In this document: one piece after another, positions 8,579 to 61,579 of the stretch
Numbering within the stretch: position 1 is the stretch's first letter
Layout of the letters: every line of letters starts with the position of its first letter
Assembly (NCBI GenBank): GCA_964525225.1
Contig: CAZGDX010000001.1
Coordinates: 40,654 to 104,653 of the forward strand
Direction: 5' to 3'
Length of the DNA: 64,000 nucleotides
From: an uncultured Gammaproteobacteria bacterium
Lineage (GTDB): Bacteria; Patescibacteriota; Patescibacteriia; DYHP01
Program-made: the position numbers and the translations under genes
Notes under the pieces: model-generated
Told to the model about the DNA's origin: nothing
The model's input: only the letters and a program-made list of their open reading frames with translations
Databases searched by the model: none

Positions 8579-8607
8579 TTGACAAAATTGCCATTTGGAG
8601 TTATAAT
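8579..8607 (+). promoter_or_regulatory. consensus sigma70-type promoter (TTGACA-17-TATAAT) for the tRNA-Arg/tRNA-Lys transcript
   Basis: Exact TTGACA at 8579-8584, 17-nt spacer, TATAAT at 8602-8607. Confidence 0.7.
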
Positions 8608-10377: not shown

Positions 10378-12681
10378 ATGAGGCACGAGAACACGGATTT
10401 GAATAACGCGATTTGTTTGGGTGTTTTTGCCGCTGTCGCGACGATTGTTTTTTTCGTGATGTCCGGATGCATTCAGGAGGACCTGCGGCGGACTTGCGAC
10501 GATTCGGATTGTTGCGCCGAGGATTCCGATTGCGATGACGAGCTTGCGTGCACGACCGATTCTTGCGTGCGCGGAGAATGCATGTTTACTGCGGTTGACG
10601 AATTGTGTGCCGATGGCGAGGTTTGCAACCTTGCGAGCGGCTGCGTTACCGAAAATGAGTGCGACGATGACGGAGATTGTGAAGACGCCTTTGATTGTAC
10701 TGGTGATGACTGCATTGGTGGCGTCTGCATTCACGTGGCGGATTCCGACCTCTGCGAAGAGGACGAGGTTTGCAATGAGTCAAGCGGATGTGTCCGCGAG
10801 GCAGAGTGTGTTTTTGACCGCGACTGCGACGAGGAAGGCCCGGATTGCAATGCCGATCGGTGCGCGGACGGAACCTGCGAGCGCGAGCCCAGCGATGGGC
10901 TTTGCGCCGACGGCTATGTCTGTAACGCGAGCGGCATTTGTGTTTTGGGTCATGAAGACGAGTGTGACGACGACGAAGATTGCGAGGATGGTGTGGCTTG
11001 CACCGAAGACGATTGTAGCGTCGGCAGGTGCATTTTCCGTCCTATGGATAATCGCTGCGACTCGTTTGAAGAGTGCGATGTCGAGCTCGGATGCGTTTGG
11101 GAGAGTTGGGTGCAGTGCGAGGTGAGTGGCGAGTGCACGGACGGTGTGGGTTGCACACGCAATATGTGTATTGGCCATCTATGTGTGTTTGAGCCAATGG
11201 ATGAGTCCTGCGGCGAGAACGAGCGTTGCGACACAACGCTCGGATGCATTGCAATGCCGGAGTGCGATGACGATACGGATTGCGATGATGGACAAATTTG
11301 CACGACCGACACTTGCGACGATGGCGAGTGCGCCAATACTCCAGTGAATAGTCGATGCGATGACGGCAATTACTGTTCTGCTGATATCTGTTTGGCTTCT
11401 GGTGAGTGCGTTCATATGCCACTCGATAGCTACTGTGCCGCGGACGGCGAACATTGTTCGCTGGCTGCCGGCGGTTGCGTGGAGTGTACTTCCAACAGCC
11501 ACTGCGCGGATTTTGAGTTTTGCAACGCCGATTACGAGTGCGAGAGCGGATGTGGTTCGTGCGACGATGGTGTTTTTTGCACCAATGATATTTGCACAAT
11601 TTATGGTTGTACTCACACCGCGACAAACTCTCGATGCGGCAGTTCTTTGCCGTATTGCCACTCGACCCGCGGTTGCGTGGAATGCCTCACAGACGCTCAT
11701 TGCGCGAGCAATGAACACTGTGATGGTTATGTCTGCGTGGCAGACGCCGAGTGCGATGCTGATTCTGACTGCGACGATTCCATCGCCTGCACTACCAACG
11801 ATTGCGATACTGCCGGACGTTGTCTTTACACGCCGAACGACGCTTTTTGCGATGATGGCGTGTACTGCACAGTAGACGATTGTTCGCTTGCCGAGCGCGG
11901 TTGTACTCACACCGCGACAAACTCTCGATGCGGCAGTTCTTTGCCGTATTGCCACTCGACCCGCGGTTGCGTGGAATGCCTCACGGATTCTCACTGTGGG
12001 ACGGGCGAGTATTGCAGCAGTTATGTCTGCGTGGTCGATGCCGAGTGTGATTATGATGCCGATTGTTCTGACGGCGTGTACTGTACTGTGGACGACTGCG
12101 CGAGCGGTTTCTGCACGAACACGGCCGACAACACGCGTTGTTCCTATGGTTTGCTTTGCCATTTGACCGCTGGTTGCGTGGAGTGCAGGACAGACGCGGA
12201 TTGTAGTTCTTCCGAGAGCTGCGCCTCGGACCACACTTGTGTATCCGATATCTGCACTTACGATTCTGACTGTTCCGACGACATTGCCTGCACGGTGGAC
12301 GACTGCACGTCGGCTCACGATTGCACGCACACGGCGATGAATTCGCTGTGTCTGTCTGGACAGTATTGCGATCCTCTATACGGATGCCGCACGAGCACTG
12401 GTTCCGATCTGGACTACGATGGCATTCCGGACAGTTCCGATAACTGTCCGACAACGCCAAATCCCGGGCAGGCAGACATGGATTATGACCACATCGGCGA
12501 CGTGTGCGACTGTGATGTGGACGGCGACGGTTCTGTCGCGTTCATCTGTGGTGGCTGGGATTGTAACGACTACAATAACAGCGTGCATCCCGGCGCTTGG
12601 GAGGATTGCGACGACGGCATGGATAATGATTGTGATGACCTGATCGATGGTTACGATGCCGACTGCGGTTGCTGTTCCTGA
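10378..12681 (+). CDS. large secreted/lipoprotein-like Cys- and Asp-rich repeat protein with C-terminal thrombospondin type-3-like Ca-binding repeat and MopE-like (CxDxDxxxxPGAxExCDGxDNDCD) motif
   Basis: Start set at the ATG with AGGAGG at 7-nt spacing. Signal peptide ends in the lipobox-like VMSGC. About 10 repeats of the CxxDxDCxDxxxCTxDxCxxGxC...CxDGxxC pattern. C-terminus: DYDGIPDSSDNCPTTPNPGQADMDYDHIGDVCDCDVDGDG, then CNDYNNSVHPGAWEDCDDGMDNDCDD. GC about 55%. Confidence 0.8.
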   Translation: MRHENTDLNNAICLGVFAAVATIVFFVMSGCIQEDLRRTCDDSDCCAEDSDCDDELACTTDSCVRGECMFTAVDELCADGEVCNLASGCVTENECDDDGDCEDAFDCTGDDCIGGVCIHVADSDLCEEDEVCNESSGCVREAECVFDRDCDEEGPDCNADRCADGTCEREPSDGLCADGYVCNASGICVLGHEDECDDDEDCEDGVACTEDDCSVGRCIFRPMDNRCDSFEECDVELGCVWESWVQCEVSGECTDGVGCTRNMCIGHLCVFEPMDESCGENERCDTTLGCIAMPECDDDTDCDDGQICTTDTCDDGECANTPVNSRCDDGNYCSADICLASGECVHMPLDSYCAADGEHCSLAAGGCVECTSNSHCADFEFCNADYECESGCGSCDDGVFCTNDICTIYGCTHTATNSRCGSSLPYCHSTRGCVECLTDAHCASNEHCDGYVCVADAECDADSDCDDSIACTTNDCDTAGRCLYTPNDAFCDDGVYCTVDDCSLAERGCTHTATNSRCGSSLPYCHSTRGCVECLTDSHCGTGEYCSSYVCVVDAECDYDADCSDGVYCTVDDCASGFCTNTADNTRCSYGLLCHLTAGCVECRTDADCSSSESCASDHTCVSDICTYDSDCSDDIACTVDDCTSAHDCTHTAMNSLCLSGQYCDPLYGCRTSTGSDLDYDGIPDSSDNCPTTPNPGQADMDYDHIGDVCDCDVDGDGSVAFICGGWDCNDYNNSVHPGAWEDCDDGMDNDCDDLIDGYDADCGCCS

Positions 12682-13680: not shown

Positions 13681-13712
13681 TGCCCTTGGCAAATATGCCA
13701 AGGGTTTTTTAT
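13681..13712 (+). terminator. Rho-independent terminator (gcccttggc aaatat gccaaggg + T-run)
   Basis: Hairpin plus TTTTTT immediately after the stop. Confidence 0.7.
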
Positions 13713-13793
13713 TTTATCTCTTTATTATTTTATAAAGAAAAAGATAAAATAACCCTGCTCTAAACTGTTGTAATTACAACTAATTTTAATTTA

Positions 13794-13867
13794 GCGGAAG
13801 CCGAAGGCGTTTCCGAGAGACATACCCGAAAAATTATTAAATCGGCTTCGGGTTTAGGGTGGGGTAG
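13794..13867 (+). repeat. conserved ~75-nt element (GGAAGCCGAAGGCGTTTCCGAG...CTTCGGG.TTTAGG.GGGGT), copy 1, upstream of apt
   Basis: Near-identical 5' 22-mer and a conserved 3' G-rich tail shared with the copy at 61373-61447. Confidence 0.55.
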
Positions 13868-13934
13868 TCCTTTATTAATCTTCTTGATTTTATAGCTAAT
13901 AGTTGATAAGCTTTAAGCATAAATTATCTTTCGT

Positions 13935-26809: not shown

Positions 26810-28186
26810 TTATTTTTTAGTGTTATTTTCTTTTATTTTATCAGTTTCTGTTTCTTTCGGCGAGGTTTCTTTTTTTGTTTCTTCCGGAGATTCGGCAATC
26901 GGAGGATTTTCGGCAGGAATTTCCGGTTTGGTTTCCTCCGCGGTTTCTTGTCCGGTTTCGGTCTTTTCCGCAACTTCGGTTTCTTTTTCTTTTGTTTCTT
27001 CCGGGATGTCTTTTGCTTTAATTTCTTCAATAGTAATGGTCCAGCCGGTCAGTCGCGCGGCCAAACGGACATTTTGTCCGCCTCTGCCGATAGCCAAAGA
27101 AAGCTGGTCGGATGAAACATGGGCGGTTGCGAGCTTGGTTTCCTGATTTAAATTTATTTTTTGGATTTTTGCCGGAGAAAGCGCGTTTCCGATAAATTTT
27201 TCCACATTTTCGCTGTATTCAACTATATCTATTTTTTCGCCGCCGAGTTCATTGATGATTGTTTGGATGCGAGTGCCGCGCTGGCCGATGCAGGAACCGA
27301 CCGGGTCAACGTTTTCTTCTTTTGAAGAAACCGCGATTTTGGTCCGCGATCCGGCTTCGCGCGCCACAGAGTTGATTGTAACGGCGCCTTCCGCGATTTC
27401 CGGAATTTCGGACATAAAAAGTTTTTTTACCAATTCCGGATGCGCGCGGGAAATCGTTATTTCTGGTCCGCGCGAACCGATTGTGACTGATTCAACATAA
27501 ACCTTTATGCGGTCGCCCGGATTATATCTTTCGGTCGGGATTTGTCCTTCGGGCGGTATGACGGCCGTGATTTTTCCAAGGTCAACTAAAACTACCCGGC
27601 CTTCGCGCCTTTGCACGATGCCGATAAGGACCTGTTGTTCCTTGTCTTTGAATTCCGCAAAGACATTTTCCCGTTCGGCTTCGCGGAGACGTTGGGTGAT
27701 TACTTGTTTTGCCGTTTGCGCGGCCATTCTTCCGAATTCGCCCGGAACTTCAAGTTCGGTTTTTAAAACTTCATCAAGTTTCGCGCTTTTCTTAATTTTT
27801 TTTGCTTCGGAAAGGGAAATATTAAGTTTCGGGCTGAAGCGCGGTTTTTCCTCTTCGCCTTCCGCCGGAACAATTTCTTCCTTTTCTTCCTTGGCGAGAG
27901 GAACAGCAACGCCTTCGGCTTCCATTTGTTCGCGCAATTTGGCGCGTTCTTCCATTTCTTTCTGGTATTCTTCAAAAAGCTCGTCAGAAACTACGGTTTT
28001 AATATCAAAAACGCGAAGAGCTCCGGTTTCCGGGTCAAATTCGGCTTTCAGATTTTGATTTTTTTCGCCAAAATCTTTGCGGTACGCGGAAGCCAACGCG
28101 GATTCCACTGTTTCCAAAACAGATTCGTACGAAAGATTTTTTTCCTCGCAGATTTGTTTGATTGCTTGCATTATTGGTGACGACAT
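26810..28186 (-). CDS. nusA: transcription termination/antitermination factor NusA with Glu/Lys-rich C-terminal extension
   Basis: N-terminal domain, S1 domain and two KH domains, followed by a low-complexity acidic/basic tail. Confidence 0.9.
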   Translation of the reverse strand: MSSPIMQAIKQICEEKNLSYESVLETVESALASAYRKDFGEKNQNLKAEFDPETGALRVFDIKTVVSDELFEEYQKEMEERAKLREQMEAEGVAVPLAKEEKEEIVPAEGEEEKPRFSPKLNISLSEAKKIKKSAKLDEVLKTELEVPGEFGRMAAQTAKQVITQRLREAERENVFAEFKDKEQQVLIGIVQRREGRVVLVDLGKITAVIPPEGQIPTERYNPGDRIKVYVESVTIGSRGPEITISRAHPELVKKLFMSEIPEIAEGAVTINSVAREAGSRTKIAVSSKEENVDPVGSCIGQRGTRIQTIINELGGEKIDIVEYSENVEKFIGNALSPAKIQKINLNQETKLATAHVSSDQLSLAIGRGGQNVRLAARLTGWTITIEEIKAKDIPEETKEKETEVAEKTETGQETAEETKPEIPAENPPIAESPEETKKETSPKETETDKIKENNTKK

Positions 28187-49212: not shown

Positions 49213-49241
49213 TTGACAATTAGCTTAAAATGTGCTACAAT
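49213..49241 (+). promoter_or_regulatory. promoter TTGACA-17-TACAAT (extended -10 TGcTACAAT) for RNase P RNA
   Basis: Exact -35; TG dinucleotide sits two bp upstream of the -10 hexamer. Confidence 0.65.
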
Positions 49242-49249
49242 ACATCTGT

Positions 49250-49800
49250 TCCTTGAAATAAGAAAACCGGATAGCTGCCCCACACCTTTTGGCTTTTATT
49301 ATTTAAGTTTCGTCTATGTTCTATGTTTATATCTTAAAAAGCATGCAAAGGCCCTAGTCCAATTAAAGAGAAGAATAAGATGGTCGCTAGATGAAAGCTA
49401 AAAGGTGTGGGGAGGAAAGTCCGAACACCATTCTTCGCAGCAATGCGGGGCTTAGAGGTAGTCGCTAACGGCGACGGGGAGTAAATAATTTTGTTTTATC
49501 GCGGATTTGCGTTTATAGCGCAAACAAGCGAATGCAGTTTTAAGAAGCCCACGGATAGTGTCTTGAAAAAGGTTTGTTTTTCTTGTAGTAATATAAGAAA
49601 GATAAGCAACAGAAAATATACCGCCGAATTCCCGATTTTTCGGGAATGGCAAGGTTGAAATCGTGAGGTAAGAGCTCACGCGTAACCGCAGCGATGCGGC
49701 ATGTGGCAAACACCTACCCGGTGCAAGGTTTAAAAACCGCTTGAGCTTTATAGAAATATAAAGCCCAGAGAAATAGCTATCCACCCCTCACACGGAAAGC
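49250..49800 (+). ncRNA. rnpB: RNase P RNA (bacterial type), with an unusually long insertion in the P3 region
   Basis: Universally conserved GGAGGAAAGUCCG (P4 5' strand), ACAGAAAAUAUACCGCC, GGUAAGAGCUCACG and CACCUACCCGGUGCAAGG blocks in the canonical order. P1 candidate pairing ggatagct(49282)/agctatcc(49778). Ends are approximate. Confidence 0.75.
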
Positions 49801-50138
49801 GATTGTGTGCAACGCTTGATATTATTGGCGATATTTTAAAATGTCACTTAGAAATATTAAATGTTCAAATTATTGCATACTTTCGTTTTTTCGCTTTCCG
49901 TGTGAAGGGGGACAGAATTCGGCTTATAGGTTATCTTATATTTAAGGAACAAAAATACGCTTGAGTACTCAAGCGTATTTTTGTTTGAACACCAACTGTG
50001 TACAATTCCAATTGACACAAGTCCAAAAAAATGGTATAATATATGTGTAAGCTCGAAAAGGGTTTACTAAAACAAAAAAATAGAAATGCCCCAATTTAAT
50101 CCGCGTATAGGCGTGGAACATCTGTGGCAAAAACAAAA

Positions 50139-59930: not shown

Positions 59931-61316
59931 ATGAGAACTTTAGCGCGCGACACAATCAAGATGGAGGGAAAAGAAGTGCAAATATCCGGATGGGTGCATA
60001 ACCGCCGCGATATGGGAAAAATTATTTTTATTGACTTCCGCGACCGGAGCGGAATTTTGCAGCTTGTTTTTGCGCCGAGCGAACTTTCGGAGCGGGCGTA
60101 TCAAGCCGCCAAAGGTTTGCGTTCAGAATTTGTCATTAAAGTTAAAGGCAATGTAGTGGCGCGTTCGCCAAAAGCGGTGAATCCCAATTTGCCGACCGGA
60201 AAAATTGAAATTTTGGTGAAGGACTTGGAAATTTTAAACGAAGCGAAGACAACACCGTTTGAACTGGATAAAGATACTCGCGTCATCAGCGAAGATGTTC
60301 GCTTGAAATACAGATACTTGGATTTGAGGAGCGAACGAATGAGAAACAATCTGGAGCTTCGCCATAATGTAATAAAATTTTTCCGCGATTATTTTTCCGC
60401 CGAAGGATTTTTTGAAATAGAGACCCCGTTTTTGACCAAGGGGACTCCTGAAGGTTCAAGAGAGTATATCGTCCCTTCGCGTCTTCATCCGGAAAATTTT
60501 TATGTTTTGCCTCAGTCACCGCAGCAATTTAAACAGCTTTTGATGGTTGCCGGGATGGAAAAATATTTTCAGGTGGCGCGGTGTTTTCGCGACGAAGACC
60601 AGCGCGGTGATCGCCAGCCGGAATTCACCCAGCTTGACGTGGAAATGTCTTTTGTCGAAGAAGAAGATATTATTTCTTTTATGGAAAAAGCGATAGTGGA
60701 AATGGTGAAAAAAGTCGCTTCGGAAAAAAAGATTTTACAGACCCCGTTTCCGCGCGTCACTTACGCCGACGCGATAAAAAAATACAAGTCCGACAAGCCG
60801 GATATGCGCAAAAACAAAGAAGATAAAAATGAATTGGCTTTTTGCTGGGTGGTGGATTTTCCGATGTTTGAAAAAGGGGATGACGGAAAAATTAACGCGT
60901 CACACCATCCTTTTACCGCGCCAAAAGACAGAGACCTCAAAAATCTTTCCAAGACCCCGCTCAAAGTCCGCGCCAAGGCATACGATATTGTTCTAAACGG
61001 TTATGAAATCGGCGGCGGAAGCGTTAGAATCCACAATCGTGATTTGCAAAACAAAATTTTTGAAATTTTAGGGCTTAAAGAAAAAGAAATCAAAGAAAGA
61101 TTCGGGCACATTCTTGAGGCGTTTGAATACGGCGCGCCTCCGCACGGCGGAATTGCCCTCGGTTTGGACCGGCTTTTAATGATTTTGCGCGGAGAAGAAA
61201 GCATTCGCGAAGTTATTGCGTTTCCGAAAACCGGAGAAGCGGAGGATTTAATGATGGGCGCTCCTTCCGAACTTCCAAACAAACAGTTAAGGGAGGCGCA
61301 TATAAAAACTGCATAA
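59931..61316 (+). CDS. aspS: aspartyl-tRNA synthetase, compact form without GAD insertion
   Basis: LPQSPQQFKQLLMVAG and class II motifs; about 460 aa. Start set at Met MRTLARDTI; the ORF extends to 59919 with TTG. Confidence 0.9.
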   Translation: MRTLARDTIKMEGKEVQISGWVHNRRDMGKIIFIDFRDRSGILQLVFAPSELSERAYQAAKGLRSEFVIKVKGNVVARSPKAVNPNLPTGKIEILVKDLEILNEAKTTPFELDKDTRVISEDVRLKYRYLDLRSERMRNNLELRHNVIKFFRDYFSAEGFFEIETPFLTKGTPEGSREYIVPSRLHPENFYVLPQSPQQFKQLLMVAGMEKYFQVARCFRDEDQRGDRQPEFTQLDVEMSFVEEEDIISFMEKAIVEMVKKVASEKKILQTPFPRVTYADAIKKYKSDKPDMRKNKEDKNELAFCWVVDFPMFEKGDDGKINASHHPFTAPKDRDLKNLSKTPLKVRAKAYDIVLNGYEIGGGSVRIHNRDLQNKIFEILGLKEKEIKERFGHILEAFEYGAPPHGGIALGLDRLLMILRGEESIREVIAFPKTGEAEDLMMGAPSELPNKQLREAHIKTA

Positions 61317-61372
61317 TCATAAACCAAATCTCGCCCCGCTTAAAGCTATGCTACAATCGTCCAATTTTGATA

Positions 61373-61447
61373 GGGGAAGCCGAAGGCGTTTCCGAGTGAA
61401 AGACATGTGGTAAAATAATTGACGACTTCGGGCTTTAGGCGGGGTGG
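61373..61447 (+). repeat. conserved ~75-nt element copy 2, preceded by an extended -10 (TGcTACAAT at 61350-61358) and flanked by a degenerate duplicate of the aspS 3' end
   Basis: ggggaagccgaaggcgtttccgag...cttcgggctttaggcggggtg. Sequence 61447-61505 is about 75% identical to aspS 61258-61318. Confidence 0.55.
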
Positions 61448-61579
61448 GCGCTCCTTCCAAATTGCCGTCCAAACAATTAAAAGAAGCAAATATAAAATCT
61501 TTATAAAATAAAGATTGCAAGGTGGAGATTTTAAATTTTAAAAAATCTTAAATCTAAAATTTGCAATCTGAAATTATTT

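What the first reader, a model, noticed from the sequence alone, without database searches (positions are those of the whole stretch)
61258..61505. Conserved ~75-nt element with promoter inserted at the aspS 3' end, flanked by a decayed duplicate of the last ~20 codons of aspS; second copy of the element upstream of apt (13794-13867)
61447-61505 is about 75% identical to 61258-61318 (the aspS C-terminus and stop), so the region between them (61319-61446) looks like the remnant of an integration that supplied a replacement 3' end for aspS and displaced the original one. That region holds an extended -10 promoter TGCTACAAT, nearly identical to the rnpB promoter, and the element GGGGAAGCCGAAGGCGTTTCCGAG...CTTCGGGCTTTAGGCGGGGTG. 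The element recurs 67 bp upstream of apt with a near-identical 5' hairpin (GGAA-GCC-GAA-GGC...UUCC) and a conserved 3' G-rich tail. Alternative pairings between CCGAAG and CUUCGG are possible in both copies, which suggests a small RNA or a cis-regulatory leader.
Basis: seen in the sequence. Interest (0 to 1): 0.55.

Follow-up and report, generated by a model that had tools for sequence, protein, structure and literature searches.

The report
Mobile structured small RNA gene family
The two repeats are copies of a previously undescribed ~119-base folded RNA element of ultra-small (Patescibacteria) bacteria. It comes and goes between genes, and at aspS it arrived on a 190-base insertion that carried its own replacement end for that gene.

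Summary
The repeat and the duplicated aspS tail are real, but the unit is larger than reported.

Four further homologues were found in low-GC metagenome contigs. All six keep an almost invariant hairpin, GGAAGCC-GNA-GGC-GU-UUCC followed by GAG. The closing helix differs in sequence but still pairs: 12 of 19 pairs change on both sides, and 0 of 500 shuffles match this. The 17 G·U pairs fix the folded strand. No Rfam 15 family matches.

Close relatives lack the element at both window loci, and every copy has a different genomic context. Two copies are followed by convergent genes, so it is not a 5' leader.

Deleting 61257-61446 (190 nt) restores the native aspS-ybaK junction. The displaced tail (61447-61506) is closer to relatives' aspS tails than the tail now in use, so the element came in with a foreign aspS end.

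TGCTACAAT is not conserved among copies, and its likeness to the rnpB promoter is at chance level.

Best reading: a new, horizontally mobile, stand-alone structured small RNA whose invariant hairpin is a recognition site for an unknown partner. The fold is well supported; the function is inferred.

The parts
61330..61448 (+). Copy A of the structured RNA element (about 119 nt), between aspS and the displaced aspS tail
   Evidence: Covariance-model match of 115.9 bits, E=2e-22. Folding energy -50 kcal/mol, z=-4.96 against shuffles.
61330..61348 (+). Copy A, 5' strand of closing helix P1 (CUCGCCCCGCUUAAAGCUA)
   Evidence: Pairs with 61430-61448. Covariation across six homologues.
61349..61357 (+). 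TGCTACAAT, an extended -10-like motif inside variable region V1
   Evidence: Present but not conserved in the other five copies. No -35 element. Chance-level similarity to the rnpB promoter.
61375..61396 (+). Copy A, invariant core hairpin P3 plus GAG (GGAAGCC-GAA-GGC-GU-UUCC-GAG)
   Evidence: Identical in five of six homologues. The one change is the middle base of the triloop, in L061.
61430..61448 (+). Copy A, 3' strand of P1 (GGGCUUUAGGCGGGGUGGG), preceded by the conserved UUCG at 61427-61430
61257..61316 (+). T1: the last 19 codons and stop of aspS as now used; the part brought in with the element
   Evidence: Less similar than T2 to the aspS tails of five relatives: 35-41 matches against 42-46.
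61447..61506 (+). T2: the displaced native aspS tail, now non-coding, with frame and stop retained
   Evidence: 45 of 60 identical to T1. 87% identical to the L003 tail over 46 nt. The peptide is closest to the nearest AspRS homologues P0242 and P0244.
61257..61446 (+). The 190-nt insertion (T1 + 13-nt spacer + RNA element). Deleting it restores the native aspS-ybaK junction. It is bounded by a 14-nt direct repeat, TGGGCGCTCCTTCC.
13749..13868 (+). Copy B of the structured RNA element, 66 nt upstream of apt
   Evidence: Covariance-model match of 121.8 bits, E=1e-23. Folding z=-3.2.
13796..13817 (+). Copy B, invariant core hairpin P3 plus GAG
13697..13748 (+). AT-rich leader of copy B. It is shared almost identically with homologue L065 although the upstream genes differ. 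Candidate promoter region of the RNA (inferred).
   Evidence: BLAST of L065 21-203 against window 13879-13697. Sequences.
13869..13881 (+). Short trailer of copy B, shared with L065. Homology with the element-free relative L046 resumes at 13882.

Best explanation
Both repeats are genes, or gene-like units, for one previously undescribed structured small RNA of Patescibacteria, about 119 nt long.

Architecture:
- The 5' and 3' ends pair in a long closing helix, P1 (15-19 bp).
- P1 encloses an AU-rich, fast-evolving interior. Region V1 is 25-30 nt. Region V2 is 30-250 nt and carries an optional hairpin.
- The interior holds one almost invariant apical hairpin, P3 (GGAA-GCC-GNA-GGC, a GU bulge, then UUCC), followed by GAG.
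- A conserved UUCG in a mini-hairpin abuts the 3' strand of P1.

Inferred mechanism:
- The RNA is made as its own transcript from the AT-rich leader, or by read-through from aspS.
- P1 clamps the ends. It would protect the RNA from exonucleases, or serve as an RNase III processing stem; an RNase III gene is present in this genome.
- P3 plus GAG is the sequence-specific docking site for a trans-acting partner, most likely a protein.

Mobility:
- The gene is gained and lost horizontally.
- At aspS it entered on a 190-bp segment from a related genome in which it lay just downstream of aspS. Recombination at or near the 14-nt repeat TGGGCGCTCCTTCC left the imported tail (T1) fused to aspS and pushed the native tail (T2) downstream.

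Shown: the family, the fold (P1, P3), the folded strand, the insertion status and the polarity of the two tails.
Inferred: transcription, the partner, and the recombination mechanism.
For: - Six distinct homologues exist: the two window copies and L056, L061, L065 and L067 (=L070).
- P1 has 19 pairs, 12 of them changed on both sides, with 92% of cells paired. None of 500 shuffles reaches this, and slid controls give 33-61% pairing.
- RNAalifold independently predicts P1 and P3.
- The 17 G·U cells would be A·C mismatches on the other strand.
- The core 22-mer is invariant apart from the N of a GNA triloop, while the remaining sequence is only about 50% identical.
- One copy tolerates a ~215-nt tandem-repeat insertion in V2.
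- Nothing in Rfam 15 matches any copy, even at E<=10.
- The element is absent from the orthologous aspS-ybaK junction in six relatives and from the region upstream of apt in all apt relatives examined (loci L046-L052), including proteins 89-93% identical.
- All six copies have different neighbours.
- L061 and L067 are followed by convergent genes.
- T2 is closer than T1 to every relative's tail. pN/pS between T1 and T2 is 0.45, so both evolved as coding sequence.
- An RNase III gene lies in the window region covered by L078.
Against: - There is no expression data, so transcription, ends and stability are unproven.
- No canonical promoter lies upstream of P1, although this genome's stable-RNA genes have TTGACA-17-TAnAAT promoters.
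- No U-tract terminator follows P1.
- Only six sequences are available, and the register of the two group-2 sequences was set by hand.
- P3 never varies in its stem, so the hairpin has no covariation support. It could equally be a DNA-level site.
- G·T-tolerant pairing is also compatible with a folded single DNA strand.
- No donor genome with the element next to aspS was found.
Confidence: 0.55

Rival explanations
1. It is a DNA-level miniature mobile element. The unit folds as single-stranded DNA. The invariant bulged hairpin is the binding or cleavage site of a recombinase acting on folded ssDNA (HUH/Y1 transposase, or an integron-like or other tyrosine recombinase). P1 keeps the ends together. 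Any RNA is incidental.
For: - Distribution is sporadic, the element is inserted relative to close relatives, and every context differs.
- The unit (leader + element + trailer) is found in a different locus in a contig from the sample that also yielded element-free aspS and apt loci (L065 against L047 and L080).
- A 14-nt direct repeat bounds the aspS insertion.
- An invariant hairpin, stem sequence included, is typical of a protein-recognised site.
- A Y1_Tnp/RAYT-like ORF lies just outside the window.
Against: - The Y1-like gene is flanked by a different palindrome (GTAGGGGACGCAGATCTGCGTCCCCTAC), not by this element, and that palindrome is absent from the window.
- There is no target-site duplication and no conserved terminal sequence. 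The helix ends covary rather than being conserved.
- There is only one hairpin, not the left-end and right-end pair of IS200/IS605 elements.
- There are no attC R boxes.
- Only two copies occur in 64 kb, none in a further ~10 kb of the same genome, and none in viral contigs, phage records or plasmids.
Confidence: 0.2
2. It is a cis-regulatory leader (riboswitch or attenuator). It controls the downstream genes ybaK and apt by switching between hairpin P3 and the alternative pairing GAAGCCGA/UCGGCUUC, or CCGAAG/CUUCGG.
For: - Both window copies and L056 lie upstream of co-oriented genes.
- The alternative pairing is perfect over 6-8 bp in the window copies.
Against: - L061 and L067 are followed by convergent genes.
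- The apt promoter region is conserved in relative L046, which lacks the element, and lies downstream of the element.
- Downstream genes are functionally unrelated.
- The alternative pairing drops to 4 bp in L061 and L067, and the one loop change (A to U in L061) is not compensated.
- No terminator or ribosome-binding-site sequestering stem is present.
- No Rfam riboswitch matches.
Confidence: 0.07
3. The insertion carries an outward extended -10 promoter (TGCTACAAT), and a short sRNA or the ybaK mRNA starts about 7 nt after it. The 5' strand of P1 is not part of the RNA.
For: - TGCTACAAT is a textbook extended -10 motif.
- In L056 a divergent gene starts 9 nt from the element, so its promoter must overlap the element.
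- Region V1 is AT-rich in all copies.
Against: - The -11 A is missing in the apt copy and in L065, and no equivalent motif occurs at a fixed distance in the others.
- There is no -35 element.
- The motif count equals chance, and the rnpB similarity is not significant.
- Covariation shows selection on pairing of the strand upstream of this motif, which a transcript starting after it could not use.
Confidence: 0.08
4. For the aspS copy only: 61257-61446 is the eroded remnant (attL side) of a larger integrated element that targeted the aspS 3' end. The RNA-like sequence is just what survived deletion.
For: - The replacement tail plus displaced tail with an identical 14-nt core is the classical signature of integrases that target gene 3' ends.
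- The junction is a hot spot: relative L003 has an unrelated 94-aa ORF inserted there.
Against: - The surviving piece is exactly one complete member of a family that occurs intact in five other, unrelated contexts without duplicated gene tails.
- No integrase or other island gene lies nearby.
Confidence: 0.08

Closest known systems
Orphan structured bacterial ncRNA motifs defined by comparative genomics (the class collected in Rfam from metagenome surveys)
   Same: It is small and intergenic. It is defined by a covarying closing helix plus a highly conserved core. It is restricted to one lineage and its function is unknown.
   Different: It matches none of the 4227 Rfam 15 models. Conservation is concentrated in one contiguous 22-nt hairpin, stem included, rather than in junction nucleotides. 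Its loci are not syntenic, and it is an insertion relative to close relatives.
Integrative elements that carry a substitute 3' end for their target gene (e.g. phage 21/e14 in icd, islands in tRNA/tmRNA genes; from my own knowledge)
   Same: An imported 3' end is fused to the gene. The native 3' end is displaced downstream as a diverged direct repeat with an identical core. The differences between the tails are enriched for synonymous changes.
   Different: The whole insert is 190 bp with no integrase or cargo. Its only content is one member of an RNA family that elsewhere sits without any gene-tail duplication.
REP/REPIN elements mobilised by RAYT (Y1 HUH) transposases (own knowledge)
   Same: Both are roughly 100-nt intergenic hairpin-forming units, with compensatory change in the stem and a strand-specific fold. 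A RAYT-like gene exists in this genome.
   Different: In REPINs the conserved part is the stem, formed by two inverted REPs that carry GTAG. Here the stem varies and the apex is invariant. Copy number is very low. The RAYT-like gene is associated with a different palindrome.
Integron attC sites (own knowledge)
   Same: The length range is similar. Structure is conserved while sequence is not. Only one strand folds. The position is just after a stop codon (aspS copy).
   Different: There are no RYYYAAC/GTTRRRY boxes at the helix base, no cassette array and no integrase. An invariant internal hairpin is not an attC feature.
Stable RNP-type sRNAs with an end-to-end closing helix, a large internal loop and an apical hairpin (6S RNA, Y RNAs)
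   Same: The overall shape is shared: a long terminal helix, a large AU-rich bubble and an apical stem-loop. A sequence-specific protein-docking helix is a plausible reading.
   Different: It is much shorter than 6S RNA. There are no Rfam 6S, Y or YrlA matches. No Ro or other partner gene is linked. It is not universally present in the lineage.

Membership tests
Any Rfam 15 RNA family | Covariance-model score at or near the family's gathering threshold | tested here: not met
   The gathering scan of the window finds only rnpB and tRNAs. Scans at E<=10 of four copies give nothing at the element, or only unrelated weak hits that are inconsistent between copies.
Riboswitch / 5' cis-regulatory leader | Members lie in the 5' UTR of a co-oriented regulated gene | tested here: not met
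   L061 and L067 are followed by convergent genes (VanW-like, tsf). apt and ybaK orthologues lack the element.
Riboswitch / 5' cis-regulatory leader | Expression platform (terminator or RBS-sequestering helix) with conserved alternative pairing | tested here: not met
   There is no U-tract terminator after the element. The alternative pairing is not kept in L061 or L067.
MITE / TIR DNA transposon | Terminal inverted repeats conserved in sequence among copies, and target-site duplication | tested here: not met
   12 of 19 helix positions differ between copies with compensation. No short flanking duplication is seen in any of the six copies.
REP/REPIN (RAYT-associated) | GTAG-type tetranucleotide plus palindrome, as inverted doublets, in many copies, flanking the RAYT gene | tested here: not met
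   The core has no GTAG. There are two copies in 64 kb. The RAYT-like ORF is flanked by a different palindrome. No copy occurs in the 21 kb around it.
IS200/IS605-derived non-autonomous element (PATE) | Two similar subterminal hairpins (left and right ends) | tested here: not met
   There is only one core hairpin per unit.
Integron attC | R'' RYYYAAC and R' GTTRRRY at the base of the stem; arrays of cassettes | tested here: not met
   The base of P1 is CCCC/GGGG. AAAC/GUUU occurs only at the inner end, in two copies. Copies are solitary.
Integrase-type insertion into a gene 3' end | Imported substitute 3' end plus displaced native 3' end as direct repeats with an identical core | tested here: met
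   T1 and T2 are 45 of 60 identical and share a 14-nt identical core. T2 is nearer to relatives.
Integrase-type insertion into a gene 3' end | Integrase or other element genes between the repeats | tested here: not met
   Only 130 nt lie between T1 and T2, with no ORF.
   The aspS copy has TGnTACAAT. The apt copy and L065 have G at -11. There is no -35. The consensus scan reports no promoter there. Activity is not testable here.
Intrinsic terminator | GC-rich stem directly followed by a U tract | tested here: not met
   No terminator is called at either copy. The sequences after P1 are not U-rich except in L061.
Transcribed stable small RNA | Discrete transcript with defined ends | not testable with these tools
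   No expression data are available. Strand and fold are inferred from covariation and G·U pairs.

The most novel reading that the evidence does not exclude
The ~160-190-bp unit (short leader + 119-nt RNA + short trailer) is itself a new kind of miniature integrative element: a self-contained, horizontally mobile RNA gene. Its invariant bulged GNA-triloop hairpin would be the handle for an unknown recombinase or RNP. The unit can insert at the 3' end of an essential gene while carrying a replacement for the sequence it displaces.
Probability: 0.15. Interest if true: 0.8.

Novelty: new variant of a known kind. Interest (0 to 1): 0.6.

Why it matters
I know of very few described non-housekeeping RNAs in Patescibacteria (CPR), whose genomes are about 1 Mb, and my literature searches found none matching this element. 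This is a compact candidate with unusually clean covariation from only six sequences, a 22-nt invariant module that points to a specific partner, and clear evidence of gain and loss between close relatives.

It gives a concrete covariance model for surveying CPR genomes, and a testable case of how a small RNA gene moves. One insertion preserved an essential aminoacyl-tRNA synthetase gene by importing a substitute 3' end.

If the partner is a recombinase or an RNP, this would be a new type of mobile unit. If the partner is a housekeeping protein, it would be one of the few lineage-specific regulatory RNAs I know of in CPR.

Tried and rejected
- **Rfam:** scans at the gathering threshold and at E<=10 on four copies found nothing.
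- **Genome-collection scan:** a degenerate core pattern returned 35 hits, all chance matches in GC-rich coding sequence (...EAxGxSE...).
- **Viral contigs, phage records and plasmids:** only chance matches or nothing.
- **More copies:** the covariance model was run over the window with filters off, over ~160 kb of related loci, and over ~10 kb beyond the window start. No further copies were found. The next-best hit is a generic long hairpin inserted in rnpB, which lacks the core.
- **Guide-RNA idea:** regions V1 and V2 were tested for matches to flanking DNA, as in bridge or omega RNAs. Only AT-rich 8-mers matched.
- **Interior hairpins:** V1 and V2 are not more stable than shuffles in the four group-1 copies.
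- **rnpB promoter homology:** not significant.
- **Small ORF in the element:** there is a 21-codon ORF in the aspS copy only; it is not conserved in the apt copy (read).
- **Considered from memory and dropped for lack of defining motifs:** 5S rRNA, SRP RNA, T-box, boxA/boxB, K-turn, hammerhead/twister and tRNA-like readings.
- **Literature:** searches for the core sequence and for CPR structured RNAs found nothing relevant.
Full report
**The observation**

The 22-mer GGAAGCCGAAGGCGTTTCCGAG occurs exactly twice in the window, at 13796-13817 and 61375-61396 on the + strand. None is expected by chance. The G-rich 3' block recurs as well.

The last 19 codons and stop of aspS (T1, 61257-61316) are repeated at 61447-61506 (T2). 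The two share 45 of 60 ungapped positions, and no other position in the window reaches 38 of 60. T2 keeps the frame and the stop codon: it reads GAPSKLPSKQLKEANIKSL*, against GAPSELPNKQLREAHIKTA* for T1.

The organism belongs to Patescibacteria (CPR), near Candidatus Uhrbacteria, judged from the named homologues of its YbaK-like and AspRS proteins. Window G+C is 41.7%.

**The unit is larger than reported**

Folded as RNA, 61330-61450 and 13750-13870 close with a long terminal helix. The energies are -50 and -38 kcal/mol, with z-scores of -4.96 and -3.2 against dinucleotide shuffles.

The motif TGCTACAAT (61349-61357) therefore lies inside the fold, just after the 5' strand of the helix.

**Homologues**

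- The scan of species-representative genomes returned only chance matches in GC-rich coding sequence. Viral contigs, phage records and plasmids gave nothing real.
- The metagenome scan gave four further distinct copies in low-GC contigs: L056, L061, L065 and L067 (L070 is identical to L067).
- A covariance model built from four sequences recovers the copies at 111-122 bits and L061 at 44.5 bits. It finds no other copy in the window (filters off), in ~160 kb of related loci, or in ~10 kb of the same genome beyond the window start.
- The next-best window hit is a long hairpin inserted in rnpB. It scores on both strands and lacks the core, so it is a generic hairpin.

**Fold**

All six copies share four features:
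- a closing helix, P1;
- the hairpin GGAA-GCC-GNA-GGC-(GU)-UUCC followed by GAG, which is invariant apart from the middle loop base (A to U in L061);
- a UUCG just 5' of the 3' strand of P1;
- two very variable AU-rich stretches, V1 and V2.

On a hand-registered alignment of the P1 strands, 12 of 19 pairs change on both sides and 92% of cells pair. None of 500 shuffles reaches any of these values, and sliding the partner strand drops pairing to 33-61%.

RNAalifold, run on an untouched MAFFT alignment of four copies, predicts the same P1 (15 bp) and P3, plus a 2-bp mini-hairpin next to P1.

Seventeen cells are G·U. On the opposite strand these would be A·C mismatches, so the folded strand is the + strand as oriented here.

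L067 carries a ~215-nt insertion of three tandem repeats in V2 without disturbing P1 or P3. V1 and V2 on their own are not more stable than shuffles in the four group-1 copies. In L061 and L067 a hairpin after GAG shows one compensatory change (read).

No Rfam 15 family matches any copy, even at E<=10.

**Distribution**

Synteny recO-x-aspS-ybaK-scpA-scpB is conserved in the longer related loci. Six related aspS-ybaK junctions lack the element. They include loci whose YbaK is 90-93% identical (L003, L080) and the locus of the closest AspRS homologue (L072, 78% identical). Their spacers are 32-114 nt, or hold an unrelated 94-aa ORF in L003.

All apt relatives examined (loci L046-L052, apt proteins 73-89% identical) lack the element upstream of apt. 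L046 keeps the apt promoter region that lies downstream of the element in the window.

BLAST shows that window homology with L046 stops at 13722 and resumes at 13882. Homology with L065 covers exactly 13697-13879 although the flanking genes differ. The transferable unit is therefore about 160-185 bp: an AT-rich leader, the RNA and a ~12-nt trailer.

L065 comes from the same sample that yielded the element-free apt and aspS-ybaK loci L047 and L080. This suggests relocation, but the contigs are not proven to come from one organism.

All six copies have different neighbours. L061 and L067 are followed by convergent genes, and L056 lies 9 nt from a divergent start codon.

**The aspS junction**

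T2 is closer than T1 to the aspS tails of all five relatives that were compared: 42-46 matches against 35-41. BLAST aligns the L003 tail to T2 at 87% over 46 nt. The T2 peptide resembles the tails of the nearest AspRS homologues...KEANIKSI and ...KEANVKTA.

The distance from the T2 stop to the ybaK ATG is 73 nt, against 71 nt in L073. Deleting 61257-61446 (190 nt, bounded by the 14-nt repeat TGGGCGCTCCTTCC) would therefore restore the native junction.

Between T1 and T2, pN/pS is 0.45 (6 synonymous and 9 non-synonymous differences). Both tails therefore evolved mainly as coding sequence. T1 is best read as an imported tail that came in with the RNA, not as an in-place duplicate.

This pattern is what integrases that target gene 3' ends produce (my own knowledge: phage 21/e14 in icd). 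Here, however, the insert has no other content. Campbell-type or homology-facilitated recombination with a fragment from a related genome, in which the RNA lay after aspS, explains it equally well. No donor genome was found.

**The promoter idea**

TGNTACAAT occurs twice in the window against 1.5 expected. The other site is the -10 of a canonical TTGACA-17-TACAAT promoter about 125 nt upstream of rnpB.

A 16-of-20 similarity between the two regions exists. A local alignment scores 23, which 8 of 500 shuffles reach and other window sites exceed.

The essential -11 A is G in the apt copy and in L065. The other copies have no motif at a fixed distance. The motif may still fire in the aspS copy, but it is not a family feature. 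Selection on the helix strand upstream of it argues that the functional molecule starts earlier.

**What it most likely is**

The best-supported reading is a stand-alone, horizontally mobile structured small RNA.
- P1 clamps the ends. It is a possible RNase III substrate, since RNase III is encoded in this genome.
- The invariant P3-GAG module docks a specific partner.

A 5' leader or riboswitch is rejected on gene orientation and on absence from orthologous loci.

A DNA-level hairpin element recognised by an ssDNA recombinase remains the main rival, because G·T-tolerant, strand-specific pairing and an invariant hairpin fit that reading too. The only Y1-type gene seen is associated with a different palindrome. 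No target duplication or conserved ends exist, and copy number is very low.

**Limits**

- Only six sequences are available, and two were registered by hand.
- There is no expression data.
- The taxonomy of the four metagenome contigs is inferred from their low G+C and gene content only.
- The collection scans were exact-pattern searches, so divergent members were missed.

Noticed in passing
L078 11880-12203 (- strand of the locus), with palindromes at L078 ~12092-12119 and ~12370-12397; same genome, ~0.6-1.1 kb beyond the window start: A truncated Y1_Tnp/RAYT-like ORF (Pfam PF01797, 27.5 bits; HLH ... WQRSFYDHVIR). It carries inside it, and again ~280 nt upstream, the perfect REP-like palindrome GTAGGGGACGCAGATCTGCGTCCCCTAC. 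The palindrome is absent from the 64-kb window.
   Followed up: partly
window 27904-27923 (- strand), inside nusA (26810-28186, -): GGAAGCCGAAGGCGTT, 16 of 16 identical to the 5' part of the invariant hairpin, occurs in the sense strand of nusA. It codes for MEAEGV in a Glu-rich linker and is followed by ...GCUGUUCC, which could close a similar hairpin. About 2e-4 exact 16-mers are expected under uniform base composition. It is probably helped by GAA-G codon repeats, but it remains unexplained.
   Followed up: partly
window 49213-49241 and 49367-49942: A canonical promoter, TTGACA-17-TGCTACAAT, lies ~125 nt upstream of the Rfam-defined start of rnpB. The RNase P RNA is 576 nt long, with two large insertions. 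One of them (49784-49909) is a 126-nt hairpin with an 18-bp CCCC.../...GGGG stem (folding z=-8.2).
   Followed up: partly
L061, ~60 nt immediately upstream of the element (oriented strand; GTTACTGG...CAGTAAC): A second rod-like hairpin with nested inverted repeats. Its apex, GUCC-GAAG-GAC, resembles the core apex GCC-GAA-GGC. It may be a related or degenerate module.
   Followed up: no
L003 2644-2928: A relative whose YbaK is 93% identical has an unrelated 94-aa ORF inserted at the same aspS-ybaK junction. The junction is an insertion hot spot in this lineage.
   Followed up: no
L067 ~1400-1630: Three tandem ~46-nt repeats (GACATTTTTTCTTTTTGTCATTCCGAACTTGTTTCGGAATCAGGAT), each forming two hairpins, are inserted in the variable region of one family member.
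   Followed up: no
window 61507-61579: The native aspS-ybaK spacer is rich in nested inverted repeats, e.g. GATTGCAA...TTGCAATC enclosing AGATTTT...AAAATCT. Relatives have comparable AT-rich repeat-laden spacers. This may be a ybaK regulatory region.
   Followed up: no
window 8579-8607 and 50012-50040: Two further perfect TTGACA-N17-TATAAT promoters, one of them upstream of tRNA-Arg. This CPR genome therefore uses canonical sigma-70-type promoters for stable RNA genes.
   Followed up: no
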